From Trichoplax adhaerens (Eukaryota; Animalia; Placozoa): a stretch of 64,000 nucleotides of DNA. Under the pieces are notes generated by a model. That model saw nothing but the letters and a program-made list of their open reading frames with translations, did no database searches and was not told where the DNA came from. This document shows, one piece after another, positions 44,941 to 64,000 of this stretch (position 1 is its first letter; each line of letters starts with the position of its first letter). The stretch is from the NCBI RefSeq assembly GCF_000150275.1, contig NW_002060966.1, positions 502,650 through 566,649 on the forward strand, read 5' to 3'. The translations under genes were made by a program, and so were the position numbers.

Positions 44941-45010
44941 GTAAGTATAGTGACTAATTGGTAAATTTCTACTGCGTTCAAAACAGTTGATGTTGTCGAA
45001 TTGGCTATAG

Positions 45011-45095
45011 CGTATTTGATCACAAAACAATTCCATATCCGAAAAGAGAATTCCTAAATGAGGATGACAATGAAGACAAGGGTGATAAGCATAAG
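45011..45095 (+). CDS. CDK8: CDK8 exon 11 ([29 protein letters not shown])
   Basis: Acceptor ttggctatag and donor AAG|gtatat. Human [27 protein letters not shown]. Confidence 0.8.
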
Positions 45096-45284
45096 GTATA
45101 TTGCGATGGCGTAGATTATATATATTAAACACTTTATGACATATCAGCGGTTGGTTGTGAAATAGAAATGATTTGTTATACAAGCATAAGGATGTCTTTA
45201 TTACTGTGACTTAAAGTTAATTTTATGGAAATGTAATATCCTATTCCCAGATAATCTTCATTATACGTTCCTGTTTATTCATAG

Positions 45285-45480
45285 AATAAAAAGATGGAAG
45301 CTACCACTACTCATAATGTTAACATGGATAACATGATCCATAACAGGTCGCATCAACAACAACGAATGAATAACGCCTATTCTGCAAAGCGTGCGCTGCC
45401 AACAAATCCAGTGGCAAATTACCAGCGGCAGCAAGCAACTCATATGGCTGTTACCGCTAATAAAGGGAATTATAGTTCAG
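45285..45480 (+). CDS. CDK8: CDK8 exon 12, partial (NKKMEATTTHNVNMDNMIHNRSHQQQRMNNAYSAKRALPTNPVANYQRQQATHMAVTANKGNYSS...); 3' end not resolved
   Basis: Acceptor ttattcatag. A low-complexity Q/N/T-rich tail like the human CDK8 C-terminus. A possible donor G|gtagca lies after 45480. Beyond it the open frame turns hydrophobic and non-protein-like. Confidence 0.5.
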
Positions 45481-47029: not shown

Positions 47030-47780
47030 ATATGAAATAGTCTAAATTGTTAGCCAATACCATCTGCTTAGAGGCTTAAGTAAATCTATACAATGTACTT
47101 TTAAAGCAATAAGAAGAATCTTAAAATCCAACCGCAAGTTGTATATGTAATTTAATAAATGAGGTATATGAGATACTTGTACTCTAATTGTAACAAATGC
47201 TATCTAATGGATAGAGATAACGTATGCTTTGTATTTAAAGCTAAACATTATTAAACATATTCCGGGTAAAATTGCGCATTATTAATTAACTATAAATTCT
47301 AAATGGTCTACGGCTGTATCACGTTAAATTAGCAAGATGTGCGATGGCCTTACAGCGTAATATTGTTATGACGGAGTTTTAGCAGTATTCGAATTAATGG
47401 CATAGTCTTATAAATACTGTTAGCCAATACTATATGCTTAGGGGACTAAGCTCATTGGTGCAGTGCACTTTCAATGGCATTGAAAGAATCCCCAAAGTCA
47501 ATGCCAAATTGTATATCTTACTAGCTATCAAATAATTATCGAATGTTTGTGAGTAAAATCTAAATGCTAATTATATGAGACACTTGTACTCCAACTATAG
47601 CAATACGATGGAAAGCAAAGTAGCGATAGCGCATGATTTTACTTAAAGCTAACGTTATGAATTTTACTCGAGGTCAAATTGTATATTAGTCATTCTAAAT
47701 TCTAAAAAGCCTACAGCTGCAGTACATGAAAACCAGCACGAGATACTGTGCGGTATAATAACATTACAACTAAATATTGC
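47030..47780. repeat. local tandem duplication, unit about 370 bp, two copies
   Basis: ttagccaataccatctgcttagaggcttaag... at 47040 recurs as ttagccaatactatatgcttaggggactaag... at 47401. atgag(g/a)(t/c)a(t/c)(a/t)tgtactc(t/c)aa(t/c)t(g/a)ta(a/g)caa... and the ctacggctgtatcac/ctacagctgcagtac blocks are also shared. Confidence 0.55.
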
Positions 47781-48044
47781 CATGACGTAATTTTAAACAG
47801 AGTCCTAATTAATGACCTAAATAATTCCATATGTTTTCCTGGACAGTTTTGATATTGGACGCCTTCTATTATATATGGTAAGTCAACTCAATCCGTAGTC
47901 GGCAGTAATACAGGTTTTAAAAGTCGTTCTACAGATAGTATATATATATAGTCTTTCCACTTAGCAAGAGAGAGTCATTTTATTCCTTCATTAAGCTCCA
48001 TTTTAACGAAATAATACAAGTCCACTCGTTATTATTATATTAAA

Positions 48045-48123
48045 ATGAATTCAAAGGCAGTCAGTATGAGTATAACATTAACAATCTTTCTAACAGGAAC
48101 TTTTTGTTTCCCTACAGCAATAG
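48045..48123 (+). CDS. CUB-TM gene 1, exon 1 (signal peptide MNSKAVSMSITLTIFLTGTFCFPTAI)
   Basis: ATG at 48045, hydrophobic core, donor G|gtgaga, phase 1. Confidence 0.65.
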
Positions 48124-48244
48124 GTGAGAATGAGAATTCAGTAATCCTGTAGAAATACGCTATCCAAATTGGAATGCTGTTAAGAATGCCATATAAGGTT
48201 GATAATGACGACGCATTAATAATCTGCTTGGAATTTCTTTTTAG

Positions 48245-48589
48245 CTCAATGCGATATCGCATTAAATTTCACCAAAGGAGAATTTCACTCCATTGATTAT
48301 CCTCAACATTATCCTGCTAAAAAATGTTCTTATACTATTCAAGCTCCTTCCGGTTATCATATTATATTGAATTGGCAAAGTTTTCACGTAGGATTGCCGA
48401 AGCAAAATGATCGCTGCCCCAGCGATGAAGTTGCAGTTTATAATGGCCGAATTAGTTTACACCAAGGCCGAGTAACAATGTGCGGCTATGATGGAGAAAG
48501 TGTTACATCAAGTGGAAATATTTTAACAGTGGTTTTATCTGGCTACAGCAATCGAAGGTATACAGGATTTCTGGCTAAATATTTCATAG
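48245..48589 (+). CDS. CUB-TM gene 1, exon 2 (CUB domain 1)
   Basis: AQCDIALNFTKGEFHSIDYPQHYPAKKCSYTIQAPSGYHIILNWQSFHVGLPKQNDRCPSDEVAVYNGR...CGYDGESVTSSGNILTVVLSGYSNRRYTGFLAKYFI. Shows the CUB hallmarks: four Cys, Y-P-x-x-Y-P, the GF...Y ending, and a 345-nt phase 1-1 exon. Confidence 0.8.
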
Positions 48590-49735
48590 GTAAGTTATTT
48601 TAATCCTCATAACGATATACACACTTGTAAGTATTTGGCCTTTCATTTCGTTTTGGAAGCATTGATGATTGCTTTGAAACAAAGACTGAGTATATTTAAG
48701 TTCATTTACATTTAATATTTCTAATATACGTATCAATGCAGAAGGGTGTGGGGTTTTTCGTATGGATTTTCTGTATTGTGAGCTGTACCCCTCTCGTTTT
48801 ACAAGATACTGGAAATTTAACAAATCAGATATATTTTATAAAACGGCTATTCTATAAGCTACACATACTGGTATATACGACTACAGAATTTTTAGAGTTA
48901 CATCACATAAATTGATGAACAATTTTGCGAAATGTAGCCATAATTAGCTAGAAACTGTGAGAATTACATTAATTCAAATTGTTCGACTTTCTAATGGTTG
49001 TTGTTATAGTCAATGAACCAAATATAAGGCCATTGAATATGTGATAGCTATCAGTACTTGATCTGAACCTTAATAGCAATGGCAATCCTTTCAGTATAAC
49101 AGTCTCTATTTATCCATTTATGAATGATTTTTAAGTTACTATTTAATTATCTTCTCTGACAAATTAACAAGAGCTTCATGAACAAATTCCAGAAATGATT
49201 TCGGCCATGCTCTATAGTAAATCCGGCCTTCAGTAAAATGATATTACTAATCTTCTTAGTATGCAATTTCTAAGAAGATTCAGCTTAACTTTTCCCTTAA
49301 ACATAACCACAATTGAAATAGTATTGCATAGATAGATAATAATTATTAGACTGCATTACATAGTTTAAATCGGTAACAATAAAGCGGATAATGCCGATCT
49401 GGTCTATTATGACTATCCCTTGCTTCACTGCTTTGGGTTATTTACACAGAGTAGTTTATAAATAATAATTGAGATTTACAGAGCCTCGTACATAATTGAA
49501 ATATTTGTAATGAAGCGTCGGTTCGTTATATATTACAGGTACCGTAATCTCCTAATTAACAGTATTTACTATAGCAATATACGGTAGCAATTTAGGCGTA
49601 ATAATTTCAGTATTTGCTAAACTGCATATCAACTTAATTCGGGTTTCAGTTAGCCTAAGCAAGATTTAGTACAAATTCGAGGATAATACAAATACTGTAC
49701 TAAATTTCGAATTGTTTTTTTTAACTTTATTTCAG

Positions 49736-50083
49736 AACGCATTAAATGTGCTAGTATGACCATAACAACAGATATTGGAATGCTTTCTGGCCCGCTAGCT
49801 TATCCTTGGGATTGCCTATATACGATACAGCTGGCTTCAAATCGAAATGTTAACTTTGAGTTATTGCATCATAACGTTTCATTGCGATCTAGCCAGTCCG
49901 CCTGCCTATCTTACGTTGCACTATACATTAACAATTTCACACCCAAGAACGAAATCTATCAGTTTTGCTTTGATCATATGTTTCCTCCTATGTATTCTTC
50001 GAGTTCCAATATCGCATTTGTACGATTTCGTAGTAAGGAGCAGCAAAATCCATTCTACGGGCTAACGGTTTTATATCGTTCAC
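49736..50083 (+). CDS. CUB-TM gene 1, exon 3 (CUB domain 2, divergent)
   Basis: ERIKCASMTITTDIGMLSGPLAYPWDCLYTIQLASNRNVNFELLHH...CFDHMFPPMYSSSSNIAFVRFRSKEQQNPFYGLTVLYRS. Phase 1-1, 348 nt. Acceptor tttatttcag, donor C|gtaagt. Confidence 0.7.
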
Positions 50084-50413
50084 GTAAGTTGAAAGTTCAA
50101 TTGCAGCAAAAGGTGCCATATTTACTCTCTAGTATTGTACGTATATAATATGCATAATTTTGAAGTTATAACTACAGGAATTTTTCAATAATTCAATTTC
50201 ATTGGCTATTAAATGAGATATAGAATAAAGTATAAAAGTAAAATTCTGATACATTTGTACAAGCAAAACCTCACAGCTATAGAAATTTAGTACAGTGTAT
50301 TTTATTGAATTATTTATTTAAAGCTCAAAATGACATTTTCTTGTGCGTTGCTATTATTACTAGCTCTACACTTTGATAGCATAATCCACTAATTATTGCT
50401 ATTGCTTTTGTAG

Positions 50414-50604
50414 ATTTTGTTACTCATTCTTCTCCTACAAAAAAAACATCGGTGCCAGAACATAACATAGCTGTTAGAATTGTCTTAATCATAGCTATAG
50501 CATCAGTAGCATTGACCGCTATTTGCTGCTCTGGATATCATGGGCGAAAATACTACAACAGACGTATTGAAAATCCTGAAGAAGTAGAGCCACTACAGCA
50601 ATGA
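50414..50604 (+). CDS. CUB-TM gene 1, exon 4 (stalk, TM helix VRIVLIIAIASVALTAICC, short cytoplasmic tail, stop)
   Basis: Acceptor gcttttgtag. A 19-residue hydrophobic helix is followed by basic GYHGRKYYNRR. TGA at 50602-50604. Confidence 0.65.
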
Positions 50605-52942
50605 GTGACAATAGCTATAGCTCTAGAGATGCGAGAAATTTTAACAATAAAGAAAGGCATATCAAAAATTTCTATCGACGAACTTATGGCAATATATCAT
50701 GATTCGGAAATTGACTAATGAGTAAAAATTTTTCATATAATAATGGCATATCACTTATGATGGTTTGCCGATCGAACTGATGGAGATTATACTCTATAAA
50801 ACAATACGGGTTTGCCTTCATTATCTTTATAATATCATTTTTGGTTTGGTAGTAATCATGTAAATGCTACCGTTAATTACTGACAGATTGAGTCGCTTGC
50901 TGCACTTCACGATAGGCCCATTTGGAAATATTTAAATTCTAGATTTAATAAAACTAGACTACTATATGCATACTAAATAGTAAGCTTATTAGTAATACAA
51001 GTACTAATCTTGGTACTATTTGAGCTGTATATGTAGTTTATAACAAGAATTATAGGCATGAGATTTTTCCCCAAACATAATAATTTATAAAATTATGGCT
51101 GAATTATATTATCCGAACACAATTAAGTTAAGATATCTAGTACTTATTAAAAGATATGAAAACCCTTTAGACTGTCATCAATTACTATGCCGGGTCTGAA
51201 AGTACAATAATATTGCGAATTTTTTTGTCTATCAACGGTAATTAAACTCGGCAAGTAGATGATACTAAATTTTGCTAGCATATTGTAATACTACTTACGG
51301 ATAATTCTATAAATTTAAACTTATAGTACTCTTTAAAATTTTCGACGGTAATTTTTAAACATGCAGATAAAGTAATATCATATTATAGAAAATAATTAAT
51401 ATCTAATATTTACCAGAATGCTTATATATGCACCTTATTTATTTATCTTATAAAACTAATCGTTGATGAAACATATAATAAATTAATCTAAAGTAAAAGC
51501 ACCTGGGTTATTCCAGAAGAACTAATAGACAAATTATATACTAAATTTTAAAGAAATCTTTATTATAGGATTAGAATAGTATGCCTTTAAGCATTATGTT
51601 AGATATTAATTACAGTTTTTATTCGACAATGTATAGATTAGTATAACTACGCTTTAATTTATAGCATTTATAATACTGTAGTTTCTTAATTGTGTTATTT
51701 ATAAACTCACTACTATATATTCTTATAGAGGGCAGATTGATAACTTGGAACACCAAAATTTATACTAGCTCTATACAAAATACATATAAAAATTTTTAAG
51801 AGCACTCATTCTCGTTTTACTACTGTTATACCTTAACATTGATAGTGATACATAAAATTTATTCGTAATTTTTATATGTAAAAATATTGACCAAATAGAA
51901 TCGAATAATTGCAATAGTAACTCATAGTGAGATAGCTCAATATTTTGCATAACCTGTTACTTCAGTGATGTCATAGAGTGAACTATTTATAACTTTACAT
52001 TCGTATTGTTTGTTTGCATACCTTTATTAAATCCAATAAAAGCTTTGAAAAAATTAAAATATATCGGCATGACAACGTTGAACGTAATCTGCGTTACTTG
52101 TATCCTATTAATTCAGGTCGAAAGAATGTGTTATATATCTGCTACTTATATTCAAGGAGGCCTTTTTCCTTCCTTTACCTTAAGGTGAGTTAATTCTGTT
52201 TGGGATTACGTTACTTCTGGACGTGCATGCGCATTCATTTCCGGTTCCTAGCTATATTATAATAATGCCGTATCATACCTATAGCAGCCTATAACTAACT
52301 AAAGTTTGTAACGAAAAAACTAAAACTGCGAGCTTACTAGTAATGATATTCAACTACTTTCAATCCACTATCATTAGAGGGCTGCAGTACCTGCACATCT
52401 CCCTTTTACTATTAGCTAATCAACGAAAGTAGATTAAATACCAAGCAGTCTATTGCCACATGAATATCAATTAAGATTGCGTACGTAACGTTACAAACAG
52501 ATACACTTATGTCATAAAAATATCTATTTAATACTCTAAAAATATAATAATTAACATTAAATTTCTAGTTGTCAAGTGATAATTATGTTACTGCTAGTTA
52601 GCGCAAGTTACACCTTAGGACAGAAATAAATATTATCTCACTTTGTCGACATAACTTTATGTCGCTTTTTAAAGGTTGCTTAAATTGCTTTAATTACATG
52701 TACTGCATTTAGAAAACTCTGTATCAGATTTTTTACCCTATTAGCTTAATCTTTACCTATCACCTATTCATTCACTACGGTACCCTTTTCTGCTTTTGAA
52801 TTTAATTTTGAAGACATGAGAATGATTTAAAATACTAAGATCAGATGAAAGTAGCTTATAAATTTTCTGATGCTGCAATATAATTACATTTCCTAACACT
52901 AATTAGGCGATTTTATTTATGTTTTAGAAGCAGATATCGAAA

Positions 52943-53000
52943 ATGAAGGTTGTCTTATTAACATTATTGTTCTTTATTACCATTGCCACGACCGTTCAGG
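52943..53000 (+). CDS. CUB-TM gene 2, exon 1 (signal peptide MKVVLLTLLFFITIATTVQ)
   Basis: ATG at 52943, donor G|gtgagt, phase 1. Confidence 0.65.
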
Positions 53001-53212
53001 GTGAGTTTTATAATTAAATAATCTCAATTAACCATTTTCTTTATTTTATTCTCAGTTACTCTAAGTTACAACTAATTAAAGACCGACAACCTTTGTATAG
53101 CGTTAGGACTAGCGTCATTTATTTATGGACTTTTCTCTCAGTCCGTTGTAGCTATGTTCTGTTTAATTTAATCATCGGTGTTTGAGTAACCTTTTATTTC
53201 AATTCTTAATAG

Positions 53213-53557
53213 CAAGTTGCAATATCACACTAACATCAAGGAGTGGCAGTTTTAAAAGCCCATATTATCCTCAAATGTATAATCGCACATATTGTTACTA
53301 CTCCATTTTCGTTCCCAGTGGCTACATAATTCGATTACATTGGCAGACATTTGATGTTGGCACACCTCAGACTTTCAGCAAATGTCATGGCGATAAAGTA
53401 ACAGTTTATAATGGATACAAAAGACCAGGTACTAAGAAAGTGGAGCTGTGTGGTCAAAAGAAAAAGTCTTTTTCTTCAACATCCAATCGTCTTACGGTTG
53501 TGTTCGATGGACGCACTAGTCGCAAATATCGAGGCTTCTATGCAGTTTATGATACAA
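53213..53557 (+). CDS. CUB-TM gene 2, exon 2 (CUB domain)
   Basis: ASCNITLTSRSGSFKSPYYPQMYNRTYCYYSIFVPSGYIIRLHWQTFDVG...CHGDKVTVYNG...CGQKKKSFSSTSNRLTVVFDGRTSRKYRGFYAVYDTS. 345 nt, phase 1-1. Acceptor ttcttaatag, donor A|gtaagt. Confidence 0.8.
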
Positions 53558-54429
53558 GTAAGTCTTCCTCTCTTCATCATCAACAAAATTAATAGAAATT
53601 ATACTTAACAATTTTAATTAAAACAAGGTAACACAAATTATACTATTTGTTCTGTCCTTGTAGTAACCCCTATCGTAATGAGCAGCTACTAATTAAACTT
53701 ATTCCAACAATTTAACTATATAGCTGTTATTTAGAATTTGACTTTCTTTGCAAGTAAAACTTTTTGGTATGATATTCGGCTTGGATTTTAATTGTAATAG
53801 AATTAATGCGTACTTTAGATACCCCGATGGCACGGTATGATTTTAAAATGATAGATTATTTTTTAAATTAGCAGCCAACCAATTTACTATATATTGGCCA
53901 ACTGCAGCAGGACAAATTCATTATTAACTACCGTACCTACGCAAAGATTTCATTGAAGCACAAATCTAACAGCACGTATTAATTTCGATGGATCTTAATC
54001 TCAAAGAGCAAATACAATTGATCGTTCTTGGACCATCTTTAGAGAACGACATTGCATCTAATACCTGATAGTAACAATTAAATTGATGCCTTACTTTCCT
54101 ATTTGATAGATTAATATCAAACTATAAAATCTTCCTGCTAACGACTGAGGGTCGACATTAAAGCCGAGTATTAAATAACAGTAACTTGCAATTATGGCTA
54201 AATTTTAAGATCGATGTCTAGCTTGTACTTATGTAGTAGGATAGATAGAATAACAAGGTAGCTTCCATTAATAATAATATAGAAATGCTAAGTTGTAATA
54301 GCATTTGCTTATATTACACAAACTAGATTTATATGGCTGCAATGCATGCTGAACTTGTTGATTGAATAGACAGAAATAGCTAAACTCTTAATTATTATCC
54401 GGCTAAAGAATTTTATCGCTTATATTAAG

Positions 54430-54606
54430 CTTTACCATCAATCACCGGCACTCCGAAGAGACCTGTTACTCCTTCTCGTGTGAGTACCTCCTCTTATATC
54501 TCCAAGACAGTAATTTTCAAAAATTCAACTTGTACCCGCTATCAATGGTACCATAATACACCACAAGGAAAAGTCCCCTACAAAACAACGATTACTTGTA
54601 CGAAAG
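54430..54606 (+). CDS. CUB-TM gene 2, exon 3 (S/T/P-rich stalk plus small 2-Cys module IFKNSTCTRYQWYHNTPQGKVPYKTTITC); 5' boundary uncertain
   Basis: Open frame TLPSITGTPKRPVTPSRVSTSSYISKTVIFKNSTCTRYQWYHNTPQGKVPYKTTITCTK. Donor G|gtaaat. Paralogous to gene 3 exon 5 (IFKNATCEAIEWYYNTPFGKVISRTSFSC). The acceptor is a best guess by phase. Confidence 0.5.
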
Positions 54607-55129
54607 GTAAATTTTATTCTTTGCTTCTTAACTTAGTCAATCACAAGGACGCATTCAATTGCTATTCAAAGATACAATTCTGCAGTGACTACAGGATTAA
54701 AATTGGCTAAAATTTCCTGGTACTGTTACGGTTAATTGGATTAAATTATAAATTCTAGTTTTTCAAAATCAATTTTCTCAGTATACTTATAATCAAGCTT
54801 ACTCAGTTAGTAAAAACTTTTAAATGTTACGTATAGCTACAGGATAAGCAATTAGTACCTTTGATAAACTTGAATAACATTCAGACCGATGATATTTCAA
54901 TCAGAATATGGACGATTTAAAGTAATAACAGTCATCGTACGATATAGTTGCACCCTTTACAACGTTTTGTTCGTCGTTTTAAGTACAAATTTGTTACCTG
55001 CGCGAGTTGCATCTTCAGCAAATTTCCATACAAAGCAAAACTATACTCAGATTCTACTGGTTGCGATATTAGTGTTAACGCTTTCTTACTATTTGTAATT
55101 ATTTTTGTGCTACATGATTTCTATTATAG

Positions 55130-55245
55130 GTGTGAGCGTGGTTACCATTATTGCTGTATCGGTTAGTATTTTCATTTGTGCAATAATTGCAGGAATTTTT
55201 TACACTATTAAAAGACGACGAGGACCTCATTTTGTTAGGCTATAA
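55130..55245 (+). CDS. CUB-TM gene 2, exon 4 (TM helix VSVVTIIAVSVSIFICAIIAGIF plus tail YTIKRRRGPHFVRL*)
   Basis: Acceptor tctattatag. TAA at 55243-55245. Confidence 0.65.
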
Positions 55246-55539
55246 AGCGAGTGGACCACATCAGCACATAAAATTTGCTGGAATACACAACATCCTTATA
55301 TACAGTTGTTTCCAATTAGCGGTAACAATTACGAATATGATTATGTTATTAGTGCAAAAGATGCGCCGGTTTTAGTGTCGTAGGAAACTACAGCGATCGC
55401 AGCATTTCGTTCTTATTCGGAGTCTTGTTAATTAATAATAGATGTTATTCGTAATTCTCGTTTACAATCTTCGGCTTCTACAGTATACATACTAAGAATA
55501 TAAGTATTGAAAGCAATGTAATAGCGATTGTCTATTAAC

Positions 55540-57010
55540 TTGAAGTACTAGTCTGCATTTGGGTAGGTTTTAGATAATGAAAATTCAGAAATTACTGTAT
55601 CCCGTAGAATTTCGTTCTAATGAGTTTACTAAGTTTAGTAAGTGGATCGATGTTATTCATAACTATTAATTGCGATCTTTGGATTTGTAAACAAAGTTAG
55701 AATACAAGTAGTTAAAACAAGACAATTCGCAACAGCAGAGATTTATGTTAACGAAAACCATGCAATAAACTATTTTATTCCAAATCGTCTGTGATTAGAA
55801 TTTGTTGGAGAATTCCAAAAAAGCAGATTTATTACAACATATTTGATAAATATCGATAGCAATATGTTTTATATCTCCAAAATTAGCGTAGAACTATGCA
55901 AACCGAAGCGTACACGTAGTTAAAGTAATGCAAGAGAGGTTTTTGTGAGCGAAAAACCAATAATAAACTGCTTGCATTCAGTATCGTTAGTGATTAAAAT
56001 TTGTTGAAGAATGCAAAAGAAGCAGATTTATGGCTCCTTATTTAGACAATATCAATAGCAATAGTAATCATAACCTCAAAATCAGTCTAGAACATTGTGA
56101 ACTTAAGGGATACAAATAGTTAAAGCAACGCAACAGATATTATCTTCTTTGTAGTGGAGATTATAACCTGCTGTTAGTGATGTTTGTTTACGATAGACTT
56201 GAAAATACAGTAACCACAGAATTTCCGTCTTATACTTAGTCTAGTACGTGAATCGATGTTGATCATAACTTTTATATGTGATTTGCAGCTTTTAAACAAG
56301 GTAAGTAGATGACCAGTTATAGCAACGCTGCAGAAATTGTCCCCTTGCATTTGATAGTCTGCAACTGGAGAAGTTTATATTAACGAGAATCCCGTAATAA
56401 ACCATTTATTTCGAATTATTTGTGATTTCAATTTGTTGGAGATTCCAAAGAAGCACATTCATAACACCTCGTTTAGGCAATATAAACAGCTATATGCTTA
56501 ACATCATAATAATCAGTCTTGAACATTGTAAGTATTAAGAATTGCTCCTTGGCGAGTAATATGCATTAATACATGTACTTCTCAACTCTCATGTGAAGAC
56601 AAGAAGTGATTTTACTGAAGTTGTACCCGACTTTATATAACATATCTACGCATACCATAGCCGTATGATACTCCCACATTGTACAGTAATCTATTCCATA
56701 AAGATAAATGCATCATAAACATCATAAAGTCATATTACAATTTCAACGATTGCTGGTAACATAGCTTTATTGCTTGTTACTCTACACATTTTACAACTAC
56801 TGACGTAACAGCAAGTGAAAGCAAATAAGTAATTAAAGCGACAAAATAGAGATTGTCTTCTTTGTGCTTGGAATGATAGTCTGCAAATGGAAAGGTTCTT
56901 GTCAACAAGTAGGCTGTAACAAAGTGTTTTATTCTGAATTGTTTGCGATTAGAATTTGTTGAAAAATTCCGAAGAAGCAGATTTACATTGCCCCATTTGG
57001 TTAATACTAA
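55540..57010. repeat. Intergenic satellite-like tandem repeat array (units about 200-430 bp, at least 4 copies) between CUB genes 2 and 3
   Basis: A recurring core t(g/c)(t/c)gatt(a/t)(g/a)aatttgttg(g/a)a(g/a)a(a/t)t(t/g)c(c/a)aa(a)agaagca(g/c)attta(t/c) appears near 55790, 55990, 56430 and 56950. Longer blocks (ttcgttctaatgagtttactaagtttagtaagtggatcgatgtt... versus ttccgtcttatacttagtctagtacgtgaatcgatgtt...) are shared between 55600 and 56220. Confidence 0.6.
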
Positions 57011-57889
57011 TAGTAATGTGTTTCATAGCTTTTTCTCTCCCAAATTTTGAATAATCTCAAACAAGTGTATCACTTATAGTAACGTAACCGAACAATAATA
57101 GTAGCCCATTAATTTGCTTATCTACATTAATGCCCATGCCATTCGATAAAATGAATTATACAAGCTCCAGAGTATGATTACAATTAACGCGGCTATCACA
57201 GATATACAACTTTCATCTTGCAGTAGTCAGCAATCCATCAAGAATGATATATGCACAAATGCATGCATGAATGGAATGATCGCTGCTATTTCACAGGCAT
57301 GCAACTATTAAAGTATTAGTTAAACAATCCATAACCATCATCAAATAGAGCTTCCTTGGAATGATAACAATTCTATCCCCAATAATTATGACAAGCATGA
57401 TGAATTGATGATGTCAGTGAGAGAATGCGCAGAATAATCTTTTCATCAAATAGAAAAAATAAATCTGTGGTTGGCATTCTAGTGGATATATGATCTTTGT
57501 TAAAGAGCTCAACAGGACTTAATTTTAGCGATTCATATGTTAATTAATGCTTGCCACATTGATCAGTAACGTCGTTATTATTACCCTATTGACAGTTATT
57601 AACGAAGGCTATACAGTAGATTCATTAAAGGAAAAGAAAAATTGCCGTCATTCTATTCAAGAAGCTCTCTATTAAGGCTAGGAAGGATAGTTAACGGAAC
57701 TTTTTATCTAAGTTATCAGGAAATTTCGTGATAGACATACGATTTGGTAAGTTGAAATTCTCTTACTCGGTTTACGGATTCCTTCTCAGTTATCATGATG
57801 CAACAATGAATAGTGGAAGATATTGTCCACGGCAACGATTGTGCCTTTGCTTATCAATTCGAGCAGTATCTTTAATCATTGAGCATAAC

Positions 57890-58210
57890 TTTTAGCGCTC
57901 TTTGGGAAAGTAAAAATTATTTTTAAGTCACAATTGAAACAATATCTTTCAAAATCTTCCTTAGCTACTTAAAGTAAGATCATGATGTAGTTTACTAACT
58001 AGTAAGGCTATCCTAGTAAAAGATAGAGTCCTTAGGATCGAACATGCTGGATGCTTGTCAACTCTAGTATCTTTAATTAGGCATTGAATATAAAACTTTA
58101 GCACTCCTTTAGGAAAGTGAAGTTTATTTTCAACTCAAGCTAAAAATATCATCTTTCAGTGTCGTTCTTAGCTACTAAAAATAAGACCATAAAGCAGTTC
58201 ACTATCTCAT
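57890..58210. repeat. local tandem duplication, unit about 210 bp, about 1.5 copies
   Basis: tagc(g/a)ctc(t)ttgggaaagt(a/g)aa(a/g)(a)ttatttt(t/c)aa(g/c)tca...atc(t)ttc(a)a(a/g)(a)t(c/g)t(t/c)c(c)ttagctact(t/a)aa(g/a)(t)aaga(t/c)cat(g/a)a is present twice. Confidence 0.5.
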
Positions 58211-59152
58211 GAAGCTATCAGATTTTAGTCTGGCAAATGATTTCTAAAATTTTAATGTATAGGTTACGGTTAATATACGTAAGTTTTTTAGGTGTAGAAT
58301 ATCATGGACAGAAGTCAACAGGTCGCTCGCTTTACATCATCCTTCGTCTAATTACTTGCCATATACGTCTAATAGACTGTAATTTCCACCATAAAATTAG
58401 TTTATTGCAATGAGTTAAGTCTTAATCATGACAACAAATTAACTTTCGTATCAAACTTACTGATCACTGCCAATTTCTATAGGTTTTTTATGAAAGAATC
58501 GTAGATTTAAACCAATCAAGGAGACAGCTTCGCTTATATTTCACAGCTAGTAAAATCTTATCAGGTTCCTTTACCATTAGTCATTCTACGTCAAACGATG
58601 CCTTAAATGATATATTACTTTGAAGAAGGTTTACAAAGGTTCATAAGTACACCTTTTAGGCTGTAATTTAAGACAAAGATAGATAGTGTCCTCAAATATA
58701 ACCTTTACAGTTTCTATTGCAAAGGATTCTGATGGATGGCAAGTCAAATTTTGAGAAAAATATGTTCGAAATGGCATCTTATAATGCCTTTTCTCATACT
58801 CAGTAAAAGCATATATGCATATGCTTAAACATCTTATACTTAGAGGCTCAGCAAGATACAACTTAAGATAGTAAAAGTAGATATCGATAACAGTAGCGCA
58901 AATTGTATCAGAAATAGTTTGTGGCTAGTATGCCGATTTTGACTGATTATGATAGGCTTAATAAATATCCATAAACTTCTCACTATACCAGTAATAACGT
59001 AATAAGCAAAGAAAGAACTAAAAAAAGACGCTATATTTTTATTTACTCTTATTCCTTCCATACCATTTTATCGATATCGAACTTAAAATCAAATTGTTTC
59101 TCTAAGAGTTGGATTCTAACTTTTCCCTAGAATACAAAAAACCCTTTCCGCC

Positions 59153-59207
59153 ATGAAATTAATTTCAATTGCTATCATAACTGCCATCATGATGGCCTGT
59201 GTCGACG
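59153..59207 (+). CDS. CUB-TM gene 3, exon 1 (signal peptide MKLISIAIITAIMMACVD)
   Basis: ATG at 59153, donor G|gtaaga, phase 1. Confidence 0.65.
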
Positions 59208-59350
59208 GTAAGAAGTTAATTACAAGAAATAATGCTCTTATTACATTGCAATACTTAATTTTATTTTTAGTCTATAGGATGATAAACTGAAATTATGGCT
59301 TACAATCGTTATAATACACTATCTATTTTTTATTTGATTGATGATGGTAG

Positions 59351-59695
59351 CTAGTTGCAATTTCAAGTTGACATCGAACTCCGGATCCTTCCATAGCCCA
59401 AATTATCCAAATAATTATGCTAGTGGAAAGTGTGAATATAAAATTACAGTTCCTAAAGGTAAAGCGGTCCAGTTAACCTGGAAAACTTTCAATGTTGGTC
59501 CTTCCAAGGTGAATAAGAAGTGTCCTGGAGATACAGTTTCGGTCTATGATGGCACTAAGGACAAAAATAATGGCATTGACATTCTGTGTGGGCAAGAAAT
59601 TCAATCAATTACATCGAGTGGCGGTAACCTGACTATCATTTTAGATAGTAAAAGCGACAAAAAATATAAAGGTTTTTCAGCTTCCTATACTACAA
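59351..59695 (+). CDS. CUB-TM gene 3, exon 2 (CUB domain 1)
   Basis: ASCNFKLTSNSGSFHSPNYPNNYASGKCEYKITVPKGKAVQLTWKTFNVGPSKVNKKCPGDTVSVYDG...CGQEIQSITSSGGNLTIILDSKSDKKYKGFSASYTTS. 345 nt, phase 1-1. Acceptor atgatggtag, donor A|gtacgt. Confidence 0.8.
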
Positions 59696-59998
59696 GTACG
59701 TGAATTCTTCTAATATTTATATATATAGATTAAAACCTACTAACAGATATAATTTAATTCTCAAGCCTTGTAAAACTTCTACATAACATGTATAATGCAT
59801 ACATATACCGCACATATTTATTGCAAATACAGTATATGGTACATTGCCTATAAAGTAACGTATGACATATACAGTTTATACCTAAATTTTTCTAATATTA
59901 TATTGATAGAAACCTACTAATACGTATAATTTCATTAAAAACCTTATATGCAGCGTAAATCGGCGACTGAATTTCTTTTATTCTCTTTAAAATCACAG

Positions 59999-60361
59999 TT
60001 GACGTAGCCTGTAATGGTATGACTTTATCGACCGATTCAGGATATATTGCCTCTCCCAATTATCCTAACCCATATCCAATTAATTCAAATTGTTTGTATA
60101 AAATACAACTGCCACCTAGGAAAGTTATAGCTATTGGCTGGTTAGGCTTTGATATTCCTTTTGGCCAACCATCAAATTGTCAAGACTACGTGGAAGTTTA
60201 TGATAAAGAACCCACAGAAAGCAGTAAAGTTTATCGCTATTGTGACCCTGGATATTATCCACCCCAATTTACCTCTAGCAGCAATGTAGCCTATATAAAA
60301 TTTGTTAGTTCCAGTACCAAAAACAAGAATCACAAAGGTTTTATTGCTTATTATCGATCAG
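59999..60361 (+). CDS. CUB-TM gene 3, exon 3 (CUB domain 2)
   Basis: IDVACNGMTLSTDSGYIASPNYPNPYPINSNCLYKIQLPPRKVIAIGWLGFDIP...CQDYVEVYD...YRYCDPGYYPPQFTSSSNVAYIKFVSSSTKNKNHKGFIAYYRS. 363 nt, phase 1-1. Acceptor aaatcacag, donor G|gtgtgt. Confidence 0.75.
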
Positions 60362-60532
60362 GTGTGTTAAGCAAACACAGTGCCTATATTCATAATAGTT
60401 AGTCTTTCGAAGTATATCAGGCGTGATTGCTCATTAAAAGCTAATGGAAAAGAAATTTAGCTGATGTATAGATAATTGCAAATATACTCGTTTTATTTAA
60501 TAACCTTGTAATCTACCGTCTATTAAAATTAG

Positions 60533-60889
60533 GTACCAGACAAACCTGCAATATCAATTATGGTACTGCGACAGGAGTCGTTACAGTTCCTAATGTACCA
60601 TCACTAGTTGGTCAAAATTTGGACTGTAAAATTAACATCAACGCGAAATTGTCTGATATAATTAATTTTAAATGGATGGAATTTGGCTCTGATTTATTCT
60701 CTAAGCCCGACTCTTGTCAAAATTTTATCGAAATTTACGGTGGTGACATGACTGCATCTAATTTAGTCTCGAAGAAATGTAATTCTAAAACAGGTTCTAG
60801 CGTCAGCATGAATGGTACAACGGCTATTGTGCATTATAAAATCAAAAATTATAACACCAAAAAAAACTTTCGCTTAGTTTATCAAGGAG
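60533..60889 (+). CDS. CUB-TM gene 3, exon 4 (CUB domain 3)
   Basis: GTRQTCNINYGTATGVVTVPNVPSLVGQNLDCKININAKLSDIINFKWMEFGSDLFSKPDSCQNFIEIYGGDMT...CNSKTGSSVSMNGTTAIVHYKIKNYNTKKNFRLVYQG. 357 nt, phase 1-1. Acceptor aaaattag, donor G|gttagc. Confidence 0.7.
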
Positions 60890-61309
60890 GTTAGCCATAT
60901 TATTTATACGTAAATAATAAATATTAATTAAATATAATTGGCCTCCAGTGTATATTTTTAAAATAATGGAAAGCACTTGATTAATATTTATTAATTTACT
61001 AAATTTATAATATATCAAGTGTTATGTCTATGATATTTTAAGATGATTCACTTAAATCTATTACTAACCAGATTGTAAATAATAAAATCTATTTCATATA
61101 TGAATCGTGCGTGGAATTCTTAAACGACTCGATTCTGTAGAAACTTGCTCTGATATTGTATAATTCAGATTAATTAAATCATTTTTTTAGTGCTAGATAA
61201 TACTATTAAATCCCATTCAATTGCTATACTGTCCCTTTTAGTAATACTCAGTTATTAGTATATTAGCAAATTGCTTGCTTATGATTACTTGGTTTTCTTC
61301 TTCTTTTAG

Positions 61310-61432
61310 TAACAACTGGAGTTTTACATAAAGAAATTATATTCAAAAATGCTACATGTGAAGCTATTGAATGGTATTACAATACACCATTTGGCAAAGT
61401 TATTTCTAGAACTTCGTTCTCTTGCAGCTCAG
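61310..61432 (+). CDS. CUB-TM gene 3, exon 5 (2-Cys module VTTGVLHKEIIFKNATCEAIEWYYNTPFGKVISRTSFSCSS)
   Basis: Acceptor ttcttcttttag and donor G|gtaatt. Paralogous to gene 2 exon 3. Confidence 0.65.
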
Positions 61433-62115
61433 GTAATTTTATTAGCATTTATAGTAGCATTTCAATTAATTTAAGAATGATATTTGATCATATTTCACCT
61501 AAATCACTTATTCAAAGGATAATCGTAACTAGGCATGCTATCTAGGGTTTTAGTAATCGATTAATTAGTAATTGCAAAACTAATATAACATCCTCGATAT
61601 TATAGATTTAATTAATTAAAATCAAATCTTTATTCTATTACAGCTACATAAGATAATTATTTAAAAATTTACTTTACTACTTAGATCGAAATAAATTACA
61701 TCTTTATTATTTATACTAAAATAAAGAGCATACCATCGTACGGTAACAACGTTAAATATTGCTGAAACACATGGTTTATAATTTACTACTTCTTCGAGTA
61801 AACGGATATAGACCAATCTCACTATTTTATTATTGCATAGAAAGCTAATATATCCATTTGAACTTCTTATCTTATATTGATATCAATATCATTTGCAGAT
61901 TAATACACTCGTACTGTTGTTATTTCGATATATCGCAATACGATTCCTTTATAAAACATACTCATGATATGGCGATCGAAATTGCAATAGCAAATTTACA
62001 ATAGCTTAGAATTCATTTATATGATAGCAGCAACTGATTGTTTACGGATGGTATATTGTAAATGAATTTATGTTTAATTCAGCATGTATTTACTAACGAC
62101 TTATTGTCATATTAG

Positions 62116-62267
62116 GGCATGGCATCAAAGGTACTCTACCACTTTGGGCCTTTGTCCTAATTATTATCGGTAGCTGTGCTGTACTGATAGGACTTTCCAT
62201 TGGCGTGGGATGTTGCATCTATAAGGCTGTCAAAAGAAGACGAAGTACACCATACAGACAAATATAA
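62116..62267 (+). CDS. CUB-TM gene 3, exon 6 (TM helix LPLWAFVLIIIGSCAVLIGLSIGVGCCI plus tail YKAVKRRRSTPYRQI*)
   Basis: Acceptor gtcatattag. TAA at 62265-62267. Confidence 0.65.
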
Positions 62268-64000
62268 TTGCATAACGCCTAACTTACAAGTTAATTGGTT
62301 TGGTTTGTTCATCTGAGACACACATAAAATACTAAAATTTAACAACTAAGTACATTCTTCATACTTGCTTTAACAATCGGCAAATGGATAGAGAATAATG
62401 TTCATTTGAGTTGCACTATTTTAGTGCCTCAAACATTATTTACTTTAAAGAATTATTCAACTATTTTAAAGCAGCGTCATAGACATTGGTATCAATGTTT
62501 CAACATGATTAACTAAGATAAAGCTCAATTAATTTTACTCAAAATTTAACCATATTTTTTATACTATCTTAAAATAGTAATACCAGTAGGACATCTGTAT
62601 ATTTCTTGGATTTAATGAATAAATTTGAAAAATGTACACATATATGTAGTGAAGCTCCAAATAAGCTTAAGACTGAAATTAAGGAATAATGCGAAAATCG
62701 ATAAATTGTACGCTAGGTTGTAAGACTACATAAGTTTCTAATTGTGGAAGATGTTTACGGAATGTATTGTAGTAATTGTGTAGAGATGTTTATATTAAGA
62801 TTCCGAGATAATAATAGATAGCGCTAATTATGTTAGTACTGTGAGATTTGTATTGTAACGCTTTAATTAGAAGCGCGAATTATGAACTGATAGCGTGATG
62901 GTAAATTTAGAGGCGAACTTGTAACTCAATTGGCAAGATATGATTGTGCTTGAAAGAAAATTATTGTGTAACTAATTGTATACAAATTTTGAATATTGCT
63001 GCGATAATTTAGAAAGTCCTTGGTAGATACGAGACAAACCTAATCTTATGTAATAAAGTGAAGTTTACAAAATCTGTAGTTCGTGTTGTATTTTTGAGAA
63101 GATACTTAATCACAATGTACAATAAACTTAGTTAATCATAAGGCACGGCAATATTTGCGCAAAATTTTGTACGAACAGTGCAAATGAAGAAGATATAGTC
63201 GCTACTTCATATTAATTTATTTCACTTAATATTTTGTACGCTTATTTGTAGTTCTAGCGTTATTTGACAGATAAAACATTTTAAATTTATTTTATTGTAA
63301 GAAATTGTACTCTGTGAATTATAGTATCTTATCGAAAGAGGTAGAAGAAAGTGTGATATAGACTCCATTCACTGATATCTTATTCTTGTTTTAGAATTAT
63401 TGAAGAACATATGCAATCAATATGATGTGGAATATTCAAATTTAGCAAATGAGATTAATTTTAATCTCGATTAATCATTTAAATTTTATAGCTTCATCCA
63501 CAGTAATTATGACTGCAAATTATTTCATGAAAGATTCAATAGATGACTTTTGCTGATTTCATCCTATCATAACAAAATAATGTATTTAGATACGTTATTC
63601 GCAAATTAGCAAAAGCAAATAATTTTGAGCATAAATTACTTCTTTATGTGATTGATTGCTACCGGCCTATGGCAACTCTTGGAGTAGATGTTATCAATAT
63701 TTATAAGATCTTATTGTGCTACAAACACGATAGTAGAATACCGTTATGTTGTAAATATAAGATATATTACATATATACGTATATAGATACTCTCATAATT
63801 GCAATTGAAATAGCATCTATCACACCCCAAACTAAAAAAAAATTTAATAGAATGCACTGTGTCTGATTTAAAGAAACAATAATTGCGATGAAGAAGCTGA
63901 AAAGAACGCCAATATCCTAAATAACGCTTAATCACTTTTCGTATGATAATTAAAATACAAGTCATGTATTCTATACCGTTTACACCATATATTATAAATT

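What the first reader, a model, noticed from the sequence alone, without database searches (positions are those of the whole stretch)
48045..62267. Same-strand array of three paralogous CUB-domain type-I membrane protein genes with 2, 1 and 3 CUB domains
Three genes share one design: a signal-peptide exon, CUB domains each on a single phase 1-1 exon (345-363 nt), a stalk or small 2-Cys module, a TM helix and a short basic tail. Genes 2 and 3 share an extra 40-residue module (IFKN(S/A)TC...W(Y)(H/Y)NTP(Q/F)GKV...C) absent from the common domain catalogs I know of. The differing CUB counts fit gene duplication followed by exon shuffling of phase-1 CUB exons. The satellite arrays in the intergenic gaps may have promoted unequal crossing-over.
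Basis: partly seen in the sequence, partly recalled or inferred. Interest (0 to 1): 0.6.

Follow-up and report, generated by a model that had tools for sequence, protein, structure and literature searches.

The report
Placozoan tandem CUB membrane-protein gene family
Three neighbouring Trichoplax genes, plus a fourth just past the window, encode small single-pass surface proteins with 1-3 CUB domains; this is a real but ordinary lineage-specific gene family that public annotations already hold as uncharacterised, misnamed models.

Summary
The window is Trichoplax adhaerens. Region 48045-62267 (+) holds three separate genes. Each has a signal-peptide exon, CUB domains on single phase 1-1 exons (345/348, 345, 345/363/357 nt), one TM helix and a short basic tail. 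All six CUBs pass Pfam's threshold.

The Trichoplax sp. H2 annotation calls the same three genes. Its first model is identical to mine. A fourth paralog, TRIADDRAFT_61598, has the same exon plan as gene 3 and lies about 4.6 kb downstream, outside the window.

The 2-Cys module shared by genes 2 and 3 is real. It matches nothing in Pfam or PDB. An exhaustive search of 1.84 billion proteins found it only in this placozoan family.

CUB domains group mostly by position (A/B/C) rather than by gene. The differing counts therefore reflect loss of symmetric exons from an A-B-C-module-TM ancestor, not shuffling or gain. "Satellite arrays" are overstated: only the gene 2-3 gap holds decayed ~200-bp repeats.

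Function is inferred, not shown. I favour ligand-binding surface receptors sorted through the endocytic pathway, because gene 3, its H2 variant, gene 4 and a metagenomic ortholog all end in YxxPhi-COOH. The public names (cubilin, DMBT1, CUZD1) are not supported. Interest is low to moderate.

The parts
48045..50604 (+). Gene 1 (320 aa): signal peptide, CUB-A, CUB-B (degenerate), short S/T/P stalk, TM, tail GYHGRKYYNRRIENPEEVEPLQQ. Exons 48045-48123, 48245-48589, 49736-50083, 50414-50604.
   Evidence: Model. It is identical to Trichoplax sp. H2 RDD38347.1. Pfam CUB scores 59.6 and 25.7 bits. The TM peak is 2.64. H1 and H2 differ at 3 sites in the CDS and the proteins are identical.
52943..55245 (+). 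Gene 2 (231 aa): signal peptide, CUB-A, S/T/P-rich stalk + 2-Cys module (exon 54430-54606), TM, tail KRRRGPHFVRL. Exons 52943-53000, 53213-53557, 54430-54606, 55130-55245.
   Evidence: Model. H2 protein P0024 contains it with one substitution, plus a 53-aa N-terminal extension. The H1 model TRIADDRAFT_64360 is mis-spliced at both ends. Pfam CUB scores 68.2 bits.
59153..62267 (+). Gene 3 (464 aa): signal peptide, CUB-A, CUB-B, CUB-C, 2-Cys module (exon 61310-61432), TM, tail KAVKRRRSTPYRQI. Exons 59153-59207, 59351-59695, 59999-60361, 60533-60889, 61310-61432, 62116-62267.
   Evidence: Model. TRIADDRAFT_61597 is 100% identical over 87% of the model but lacks the TM exon and the first 12 residues. 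H2 RDD35969.1 (P0028) joins CUB-C, the module and this TM exon exactly as modelled. Differences from the H2 contig are 3 per 1243 exon nt against 33 per 1037 intron nt, Fisher p = 5e-9.
54481..54606 (+). 2-Cys membrane-proximal module of gene 2 (SKTVIFKNSTCTRYQWYHNTPQGKVPYKTTITCTKG), with a conserved N-x-S/T sequon just before the first Cys.
   Evidence: Alignment. No Pfam hit at E<=10. No PDB sequence hit better than E 0.95. Only placozoan hits among 1.84e9 representative proteins.
61310..61432 (+). 2-Cys module exon of gene 3 (123 nt, phase 1-1): VTTGVLHKEIIFKNATCEAIEWYYNTPFGKVISRTSFSCSSG.
   Evidence: Same calls as the gene 2 module. AlphaFold2 predicts three beta strands (residues 125-157 of the modelled fragment) at pLDDT about 64-69, which is low confidence.
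55627..58219 (.). Decayed ~200-bp direct repeats in the g2-g3 intergenic gap. Detectable copies lie at about 55627-57030 and 57848-58219, with 71-76% identity.
   Evidence: TRF does not detect them. They occur nowhere else in the window.
56756..56760 (.). Site where the H2 contig carries a 587-bp insertion (5-bp duplication GTAAC, 6-bp inverted ends TGTCAC/GTGACA). From this point its identity to the window falls from 99.68% to 97.6%.
61569..61569 (.). Breakpoint in gene 3 intron 5. Beyond it the main H2 contig is unrelated to the window and supplies a different TM/tail exon (ATVTLPTWAIVMIGIG...LGYRKM).
   Evidence: The H1-like 3' end exists in H2 on a separate 4.6-kb contig, 99.56% identical to window 60565-64000.

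Best explanation
This is part of a placozoan-specific tandem family of at least four same-strand genes. Three are in the window. The fourth, TRIADDRAFT_61598, starts about 2.9 kb beyond its end. All encode small N-glycosylated type-I membrane proteins whose ectodomains are built from CUB domains.

Origin (inferred from the domain tree). The ancestor had signal peptide, CUB-A, CUB-B, CUB-C, a 2-Cys module, a TM helix and a short tail. Each unit sat on its own phase 1-1 exon. Whole-gene tandem duplication produced the copies. Gene 2 then lost the B and C exons. Gene 1 lost C and the module. Exon symmetry kept the reading frame intact in each case.

Shown here: the gene structures, the domain content, the topology signals, the restriction of the module to placozoans, and purifying selection on the exons.

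Function (inferred). The proteins are cell-surface ligand-binding receptors or co-receptors. The CUB domains lack the complete Ca2+-site triad of C1s-type CUBs, so ligand binding probably does not follow the Ca2+-dependent acidic-triad mode of C1s and MASP. The 3-CUB members are probably sorted by adaptor complexes into the endocytic or lysosomal route. Gene 3 (PYRQI), its H2 variant (GYRKM), gene 4 (RYQNL) and a metagenomic ortholog (RYQHL) all end in a tyrosine-based YxxPhi motif at the exact C-terminus of a 10-15-residue tail. This arrangement is known from LAMP and CD63-type proteins. Juxtamembrane Cys pairs (ICC, GCC, FCCFC) may be palmitoylated.

My confidence is about 0.9 in the gene-family and evolutionary part and about 0.35 in the endocytic-receptor mechanism.
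For: - Gene structures and splice phases.
- CUB HMM hits.
- Hydropathy, Cys counts and sequons.
- Organism and public models. H2 annotates three separate genes, and RDD38347.1 is identical to my g1.
- Kamm et al. 2018 (PMC6057997) mention transcriptomes given as evidence for the gene predictions.
- Fourth paralog with the same 6-exon plan.
- Position-specific grouping of CUB domains: (C clade 100%, g3_B+g4_B 100%, A clade 68%) and the tblastn ranking.
- Module found only in placozoan proteins among 1.84e9 representatives. No Pfam or PDB match.
- A divergent relative (ENA metagenome scaffold L002, 53-69% aa identity to g4) conserves the CUB-C, module and TM exons.
- Exons far less diverged than introns between haplotypes (3/1243 against 33/1037, p = 5e-9).
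- C-terminal YxxPhi in 4 of 6 tails.
- Incomplete Glu45/Asp53/Asp98 triad in all six CUBs: with residue roles from PMC4222235.
Against: - I found no expression, localisation or ligand data. The gene IDs occur in no searchable paper or in the held supplements of two placozoan cell-atlas papers.
- The YxxPhi argument rests on a 4-residue motif in related sequences. Genes 1 and 2 lack it; g2 ends in FVRL.
- The placement of g1 CUB-B in the B clade has weak bootstrap support (22.5%). The A clade has only 68%.
- The structural model is low confidence (pLDDT 59.6), so the fold of the module is not established.
- SignalP and TMHMM were not available. Topology rests on hydropathy and the -3/-1 rule.
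Confidence: 0.6

Rival explanations
1. They are auxiliary subunits of ion channels, working like NETO1/2, C. elegans SOL-1, SOL-2 and LEV-10, or the CUB-domain Nav-beta subunits of Lymnaea. These are single-pass proteins whose CUB ectodomains clamp onto a channel's extracellular domains and tune its gating and trafficking.
For: - The architecture CUB(s) + small Cys module + TM is the NETO plan.
- The best Foldseek PDB matches of the g3 CUB-C/module/TM model are Neto2 chains in GluK2-Neto2 complexes (E 1.5e-5, 223-233 aligned columns).
- Lineage-restricted CUB single-pass auxiliary subunits are documented in PMC6259924.
- Placozoans have many iGluRs (PMC12226733).
Against: - The module is not an LDLa domain. 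Pfam gives no hit at E<=10, and it has 2 Cys rather than 6.
- The tails are 10-23 residues, against about 150 in NETO.
- The Foldseek match has rmsd 16-17 A on a pLDDT 59.6 model, so it reflects only domain order.
- No sequence orthology to NETO was found.
- There is no co-expression or linkage with any channel gene in the window.
Confidence: 0.15
2. They are polymorphic recognition or adhesion molecules for innate immunity, allorecognition or microbe binding. On this reading the tandem expansion and haplotype differences reflect diversifying selection.
For: - The family is tandemly expanded and lineage-specific.
- The two haplotype versions of gene 3 carry different TM/tail exons.
- CUB domains are common in innate immune proteins such as C1r, C1s, MASP and DMBT1 (own knowledge).
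Against: - Between haplotypes the g3 exons are strongly conserved. There are 3 differences in 1243 nt, giving 2 amino-acid changes up to the end of the module exon. That is the opposite of diversifying selection on the ectodomain.
- g1 is identical at protein level in H1 and H2.
- The alternative exon changes the membrane anchor, not the ligand-binding part.
Confidence: 0.1
3. The three units are exons of one long gene or transcript, or some of them are decaying pseudogene copies.
For: - All units lie on the same strand with short gaps of 2.3-3.9 kb.
- Gene 1's CUB-B is degenerate (25.7 bits).
- Public g2 models add upstream in-frame exons at 52069-52182 and 52567-52596.
Against: - Each unit starts with its own Met and signal peptide and ends with a TM, a basic tail and a stop codon.
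- Two independent annotations call separate genes.
- All ORFs are intact.
- g3 exons are under clear constraint relative to introns (p = 5e-9). Pooled over the three genes the contrast is p = 6e-4, although g1 and g2 alone carry too few differences to show it.
Confidence: 0.03
4. They are orthologs of the proteins whose names they carry in the H2 annotation: CUZD1 (g1), DMBT1 (g2) and cubilin (g3).
For: The names were given by the source. Best non-placozoan hits include proteins named cubilin, DMBT1-like and CDCP2, at 25-34% identity restricted to the CUB domains.
Against: Pfam finds only CUB in all three proteins: no ZP, SRCR or EGF domain. Cubilin has no TM (own knowledge), whereas these proteins have one. 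The similarity is domain-level only.
Confidence: 0.02

Closest known systems
NETO1/NETO2 (and C. elegans SOL-2/Neto, SOL-1, LEV-10)
   Same: Type-I single-pass proteins whose ectodomain is CUB domain(s) followed by a small Cys-containing module just above the membrane. Neto2 is the best structural match in PDB for CUB-C/module/TM.
   Different: The NETO module is an LDLa domain with 6 Cys and a Ca2+ site. Here it is a 2-Cys, roughly 35-residue, predicted beta module with no Pfam match. NETO tails are long, while these are 10-23 residues. No sequence orthology was found, and channel association is untested.
Lymnaea CUB-domain Nav-beta subunits (Fux et al., reviewed in PMC6259924)
   Same: Small CUB-domain proteins in a lineage-restricted family.
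   Different: Those are described as Ca2+-binding CUBs bound to Nav1. These CUBs lack the full Ca2+ triad. No relation was shown, and I had no sequences to compare.
CUZD1, DMBT1, cubilin (the names used in the Trichoplax sp. H2 annotation)
   Same: They contain CUB domains. CUZD1 is also a type-I protein with two CUBs and a short tail (own knowledge).
   Different: No ZP, SRCR or EGF domains are present. Cubilin has 27 CUBs and no TM (own knowledge). The names are best-hit transfers, not orthology.
LAMP-1/LAMP-2/CD63-type cargo with a C-terminal GYxxPhi signal
   Same: A short cytoplasmic tail ending exactly in YxxPhi (YRQI, YQNL, YQHL, GYRKM), as in LAMP-1 GYQTI and CD63 GYEVM (own knowledge).
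   Different: The ectodomains are unrelated. The Tyr sits about 7-11 residues from the membrane. Adaptor binding is untested, and genes 1 and 2 lack the motif.
Neuropilins, Kremen
   Same: CUB-containing single-pass co-receptors. Their CUB domains are among the top structural matches.
   Different: They carry additional F5/8-C, MAM, kringle or WSC domains that are absent here.

Membership tests
CUB domain (Pfam PF00431) | HMM score above the Pfam gathering threshold (21.4 bits) | tested here: met
   All six exons pass, at 59.6, 25.7, 68.2, 81.9, 75.7 and 30.8 bits. The spliced proteins give 2, 1 and 3 stretches. g1 CUB-B and g3 CUB-C are only just above threshold.
CUB domain (Pfam PF00431) | Four conserved cysteines forming two disulfides | tested here: met
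   There are four Cys per domain at aligned positions. The disulfide pairing itself was not tested.
CUB domain (Pfam PF00431) | Beta-sandwich fold matching solved CUB structures | tested here: inconclusive
   Only g3 CUB-C was modelled, at overall pLDDT 59.6. Foldseek still returns almost only CUB structures (Neto2, neuropilin, Kremen, PCPE-1, MASP, TSG-6) at probability about 1.0, but TM-scores are modest.
Ca2+-binding CUB subset (C1s/MASP/cubilin type) | Acidic triad equivalent to C1s Glu45, Asp53 and Asp98 | tested here: not met
   In alignment A2, the Glu45 column reads G/G/G/S/P/D, the Asp53 column D/D/D/S/D/N and the Asp98 column S/D/D/K/S/K. No domain has all three. The reference numbering was checked on C1s P0015 and the residue roles come from PMC4222235. 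The alignment is uncertain near Asp98.
Type-I single-pass membrane protein | Cleavable N-terminal signal peptide, one C-terminal TM helix and a positively charged cytoplasmic flank | tested here: met
   Hydropathy peaks of 2.64-2.83 mark one C-terminal segment per protein. g2 and g3 also pass the 1.6 cut-off at the N-terminus; g1's N-terminal hydrophobic stretch does not and was judged by eye. Small residues at -3/-1 and R/K-rich tails are present in all three. SignalP and TMHMM were not available.
Tandem paralog array | Same strand, shared exon/phase plan and significant pairwise similarity between units | tested here: met
   Searches cover the window genes. Searches cover the fourth member.
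Cubilin | N-terminal EGF repeats, about 27 CUB domains and no TM segment | tested here: not met
   g3 has 3 CUBs, no EGF hit and a TM helix.
DMBT1 | SRCR domains and a ZP domain | tested here: not met
   g2 has only one CUB hit.
CUZD1 | A zona pellucida domain after the two CUBs | tested here: not met
   In g1 only about 20 residues separate CUB-B from the TM, and there is no ZP hit.
NETO / SOL-2 | An LDLa domain between CUB2 and the TM | tested here: not met
   The module gives no Pfam hit at E<=10 and has 2 Cys, not 6.
NETO / SOL-1 / LEV-10 auxiliary subunits | Physical and functional association with a ligand-gated channel | not testable with these tools
   This needs co-expression electrophysiology or co-immunoprecipitation.
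YxxPhi-sorted membrane cargo | A tyrosine-based YxxPhi motif in the cytoplasmic tail | tested here: met
   g3 has YRQI-COOH, the H2 variant GYRKM-COOH, g4 YQNL-COOH and L002 YQHL-COOH. g1 and g2 lack it. Binding to the adaptor mu subunit is not testable here.

The most novel reading that the evidence does not exclude
The membrane-proximal 2-Cys module ([IV]-F-[KS]-N-x-[ST]-C-x4-W-Y-x3-P-x-G-x-V-x7-C) is a previously undescribed extracellular domain restricted to placozoans. The family would then form a placozoan-specific set of endocytic nutrient receptors or channel auxiliary subunits. Its 3' end would be structurally polymorphic between the two deeply divergent haplotypes that Trichoplax H1 and H2 carry, giving alternative TM/tail exons that both keep a C-terminal YxxPhi.
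Probability: 0.15. Interest if true: 0.45.

Novelty: new member of a known kind. Interest (0 to 1): 0.25.

Why it matters
Practical value is the main result.

- **Corrected models.** Gene 3 gains its full signal peptide and its TM exon. Gene 2 gains its correct start and C-terminus. Gene 1 appears to have no H1 model in the cluster I read.
- **Misleading names.** The names cubilin, DMBT1 and CUZD1 in the H2 annotation are not supported by domain content.
- **A clean evolutionary example.** In an early-branching animal, symmetric phase 1-1 module exons allowed paralogs to lose domains without breaking the reading frame.
- **Leads for experiment.** The placozoan-only 2-Cys module and the conserved C-terminal YxxPhi are cheap to test. 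Small CUB receptors could bear on how an animal with external digestion and epithelial endocytosis takes up material, or on how its channels are regulated.

None of this overturns current knowledge.

Tried and rejected
1. **Expression evidence.** The IDs TRIADDRAFT_61597 and 64360 occur in no searchable paper. "61597", "64360" and "61598" are absent from the held supplements of Najle 2023 and Mayorova 2024. The Sebe-Pedros 2018 atlas is not held under the id I guessed, and one search failed on syntax.
2. **Third word-indexed protein search.** The query was the g3 module plus the H2 alternative tail. It returned no candidates at all, not even the known proteins, so it says nothing about where the alternative exon came from.
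3. **The look-up of encoding contigs for the H1 protein P0001.** Not on record, so I could not read the H1 scaffold beyond the window. The region was tiled from three small H2 contigs instead.
4. **Structure of the module.** The accepted run gave pLDDT 59.6. I therefore draw no fold assignment for the module and use the Foldseek hits only to indicate a CUB-like fold and the domain order.
5. **Repeat-number polymorphism.** I checked whether the H1/H2 length difference inside the ~200-bp repeat tract was a change in copy number, which would have supported unequal crossing-over. It is not. It is a unique 587-bp insertion with a target-site duplication.
6. **dN/dS between paralogs or with the metagenomic ortholog.** I did not attempt this. 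At 40-55% aa identity, synonymous sites are saturated. I used the exon-versus-intron divergence between haplotypes instead.
7. **Rejected readings.** One long gene, pseudogenes, and orthology to cubilin, DMBT1 or CUZD1 (see the rival explanations).

Full report
**What the window is.** The sequence is AT-rich (about 29-37% GC) and eukaryotic. A protein search with my gene 3 model returned TRIADDRAFT_61597 of Trichoplax adhaerens at 100% identity, on a 752,879-bp scaffold. Gene 2 returned TRIADDRAFT_64360 on the same scaffold and a Trichoplax sp. H2 protein. At the one residue where H1 and H2 differ in gene 2 (YKTTITC against YKITITC), the window carries the H1 form. The window is therefore the T. 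adhaerens (H1) reference.

**Checking the observation.** Stop-free stretches on the + strand between 47.5 and 63 kb and the raw sequence gave three gene models. Every junction is AG|...|GT.
- g1: 48045-48123, 48245-48589, 49736-50083, 50414-50604.
- g2: 52943-53000, 53213-53557, 54430-54606, 55130-55245.
- g3: 59153-59207, 59351-59695, 59999-60361, 60533-60889, 61310-61432, 62116-62267.

First exons are 79, 58 and 55 nt, so each ends in phase 1. All internal exons are multiples of three. The six CUB exons are 345, 348, 345, 345, 363 and 357 nt.

Pfam CUB (gathering score 21.4) scores 59.6, 25.7, 68.2, 81.9, 75.7 and 30.8 bits on the six exons. On the spliced proteins it gives 2, 1 and 3 stretches and no other credible family. 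tblastn with each exon finds no further CUB in the 64-kb window.

Hydropathy gives one C-terminal TM segment per protein, followed by R/K-rich tails. g2 and g3 also pass the hydropathy cut-off at the N-terminus; g1's N-terminal stretch does not, and I read it as a signal peptide from its sequence. All three N-termini end in AIA|Q, VQA|S or VDA|S. Each protein has three N-x-S/T sequons.

**Are they three genes?** Each unit has its own Met and signal peptide and its own stop after the TM and tail. The Trichoplax sp. H2 assembly (GCA_003344405.1, contig NOWV01000181.1, fetched as L001) annotates three separate + strand CUB genes of 320, 284 and 460 aa, downstream of a protein-kinase gene. Kamm et al. 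mention transcriptomes given as evidence for those gene predictions (PMC6057997).

- The 320-aa product (RDD38347.1) is identical to my g1 model.
- P0024 contains g2 with one substitution, plus a 53-aa N-terminal extension. That extension comes from upstream exons at 52069-52182 and 52567-52596. It has no counterpart in the paralogs and would bury the signal peptide. I regard it as a probable 5'-UTR read as coding, but this is unverified.
- The H1 model of g3 (404 aa) starts at an internal Met and ends "SCSSAT*" by splicing to a cryptic acceptor at about 61644, so it lacks the TM exon.
- A separate H2 protein, RDD35969.1 (P0028), joins CUB-C, the module and the TM exon exactly as I modelled them.

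**Selection.** L001 is colinear with window 42069-61569. In g3 the two sequences differ at 3 of 1243 exon positions and 33 of 1037 intron positions (Fisher p = 5e-9). The three differences in the g1 CDS leave the protein unchanged. These are constrained, functional genes.

**The array is larger than the finding.** I ran an exhaustive HMMER search of 1.84 billion representative proteins with the g2/g3 module alignment. It returned five proteins at E<=0.001: g2, g3, one spurious repeat protein, and two others.
- P0029 belongs to a cluster containing TRIADDRAFT_61598 (EDV19948.1). That is the accession immediately after g3's EDV19947.1 on the same scaffold.
- P0030 is a 75-aa fragment from an ENA metagenome scaffold.

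Three small H2 contigs tile the region. L003 equals window 60565-64000 plus 1163 bp, at 99.56% identity. L004 overlaps window 63074-64000. L005 overlaps L004 by 158 bp. Gene 4 starts at L004 3809, which corresponds to about 2.9 kb beyond the window end and 4.6 kb after g3's stop, on the same strand. Its six exons are 55, 348, 363, 366, 120 and 143 nt, all internal ones phase 1-1. That is the same plan as g3 (55/345/363/357/123/152).

The metagenomic scaffold L002 carries a gene 4-like ortholog at 53-69% aa identity. Its CUB-C, module and TM exons are laid out the same way.

**How the copies relate.** CUB domains group mostly by position, not by gene. The A domains of g1-g4 are 31-46% identical to each other, the B domains 28-39% and the C domains 40-54%. 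Between positions the figure is 15-35%. In the NJ tree the C clade and g3_B+g4_B each have 100% bootstrap, the A clade 68%, and the attachment of g1_B only 22.5% (tblastn ranking).

The simplest history is an A-B-C-module-TM ancestor, whole-gene tandem duplication, then deletion of symmetric exons. Gene 2 lost B and C. Gene 1 lost C and the module. The direction, however, is loss rather than gain or shuffling.

The "satellite arrays" are weak. TRF finds nothing in 48-62 kb, and the g1-g2 and g3-downstream gaps have no internal repeats. The g2-g3 gap has four or more decayed ~200-bp units at 71-76% identity. I found no link between them and rearrangement.

**The 2-Cys module.** Across g2, g3, g4 and L002 the invariant positions are F, N, C, W, Y, P, G, V and C. 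The pattern is [IV]-F-[KS]-N-x-[ST]-C-x4-W-Y-x3-P-x-G-x-V-x7-C, and it includes a conserved N-glycosylation sequon directly before the first Cys. It has no Pfam match at E<=10 and no PDB sequence match better than E 0.95. It occurs only in this family. AlphaFold2 on g3 CUB-C/module/TM with a four-row alignment gave pLDDT 59.6. The module came out as three consecutive beta strands at pLDDT about 64-69. That is too weak for a fold assignment.

**What the proteins may do (inference).** Compared with C1s CUB1, none of the six CUBs has the full Glu45/Asp53/Asp98 Ca2+-site and lysine-binding triad (residue roles from PMC4222235). They are therefore not canonical Ca2+-binding CUBs.

The tails are short. 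Four of six end precisely in YxxPhi: g3 PYRQI, the H2 alternative GYRKM, g4 RYQNL and L002 RYQHL. This holds although the TM and tail sequences are otherwise only about 35% identical. From established knowledge of tyrosine-based sorting signals (LAMP-1 GYQTI, CD63 GYEVM; own knowledge), this points to adaptor-mediated endocytosis or lysosomal delivery. I therefore favour ligand-binding receptors that cycle through the endocytic pathway, which is plausible in an animal that feeds by external digestion and epithelial uptake. My confidence in that mechanism is about 0.35.

The main rival is a NETO, SOL-1 or Nav-beta-like channel auxiliary subunit. Foldseek's best PDB matches are Neto2 in GluK2 complexes, followed by neuropilin, Kremen, PCPE-1 and MASP CUBs. 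The Neto2 match reflects domain order on a poor model (rmsd 16-17 A), and the module is not LDLa. Precedents for lineage-restricted CUB auxiliary subunits are reviewed in PMC6259924.

**Comparison with known families.** The public names are best-hit transfers: "CUB and zona pellucida-like domain-containing protein 1", "Deleted in malignant brain tumors 1 protein" and "Cubilin". No ZP, SRCR or EGF domain is present, and cubilin has no TM (own knowledge). Membership in those families fails. Membership in the CUB superfamily and in the general class of CUB-bearing type-I receptors is met.

**An unexplained side observation.** At window 56756-56760 the H2 contig carries a unique 587-bp insertion with a 5-bp duplication (GTAAC) and 6-bp inverted ends. 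From there its identity to H1 drops from 99.68% to 97.6%. At window 61569, 137 nt into g3 intron 5, homology ends completely. The last 988 bp of the H2 contig supply a different phase-1 TM/tail exon that is absent from the window and from L003-L005. H2 also keeps the H1-like 3' end on contig 697.

Kamm et al. report that both assemblies are unphased consensus sequences of two divergent alleles, and that H1 and H2 usually share one allele. The likeliest reading is therefore a second, divergent haplotype whose gene 3 has a replaced 3' end. A join to an unseen fifth paralog cannot be excluded.

**Verdict.** This is a real, correctly described, lineage-specific tandem family of small CUB-domain membrane proteins. 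It is already present in databases as uncharacterised and partly mis-modelled genes. The new points are modest:
- the array has at least four members;
- the domain-count differences arose by exon loss;
- the 2-Cys module is restricted to placozoans;
- the 3-CUB members share a conserved C-terminal YxxPhi;
- gene 3's 3' end may differ structurally between haplotypes.

Function remains untested.

Noticed in passing
beyond the window end (window-equivalent ~66,880-70,860); L004 3809-5403 plus L005: A fourth same-strand paralog, TRIADDRAFT_61598 (H2 RDD36006.1 plus RDD35854.1). It has a signal peptide, 3 CUBs, the 2-Cys module, a TM helix and a tail ending RYQNL, on exons of 55/348/363/366/120/143 nt. 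The finding's 'three-gene array' is truncated by the window.
   Followed up: yes
window 61569 onward; L001 20094-21081: The main H2 contig loses all homology to H1 137 nt into gene 3 intron 5. It encodes a different TM/tail exon (ATVTLPTWAIVMIGIG...LGYRKM). The H1-like version exists in H2 on a separate 4.6-kb contig (L003). This is either a divergent haplotype with a replaced 3' end or an assembly join to another paralog.
   Followed up: partly
window 56756-56760; L001 14694-15280: A 587-bp insertion is present in H2 and absent in H1. It is flanked by a 5-bp duplication (GTAAC) and has 6-bp inverted ends (TGTCAC/GTGACA), so it looks like a small non-autonomous transposon. H1/H2 identity drops from 99.68% to 97.6% from this point.
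   Followed up: partly
window 52069-52182 and 52567-52596: Both public gene 2 models start at an upstream ATG in these two small exons, adding 53 aa in frame. The extension has no counterpart in the paralogs and would bury the signal peptide. It is probably spliced 5' UTR rather than coding sequence.
   Followed up: partly
L002 (ENA ERZ23499115, scaffold_5759, 3843 bp): A metagenome scaffold carries a gene 4-like ortholog at 53-69% aa identity, with the same CUB-C/module/TM exon layout. It is presumably DNA of another placozoan lineage present in an environmental or host-associated sample.
   Followed up: partly
window 40153-40847: A 234-bp unit is repeated twice at 95% identity (40312-40779) and is flanked by (TA)n/(AT)n tracts.
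   Followed up: no
window 5316-5651 (+): An ORF fragment matches the piggyBac-type transposase domain DDE_Tnp_1_7 (66.8 bits). It is probably a decayed or domesticated transposase remnant.
   Followed up: no
window 15067-17712 (+): An intronless 881-aa ORF made almost entirely of TPR repeats (TPR_12 359 bits, with NPHP3-type TPR similarity).
   Followed up: no
window 35665-36510 (+): A single-exon 281-aa GNAT acetyltransferase ORF (Acetyltransf_18 101 bits plus Acetyltransf_1).
   Followed up: no
window ~42069-45800 (+); L001 1-3736: The gene immediately upstream of the CUB array is annotated in H2 as a 454-aa protein kinase (Pkinase/PK_Tyr_Ser-Thr). No functional link to the array is evident.
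   Followed up: no
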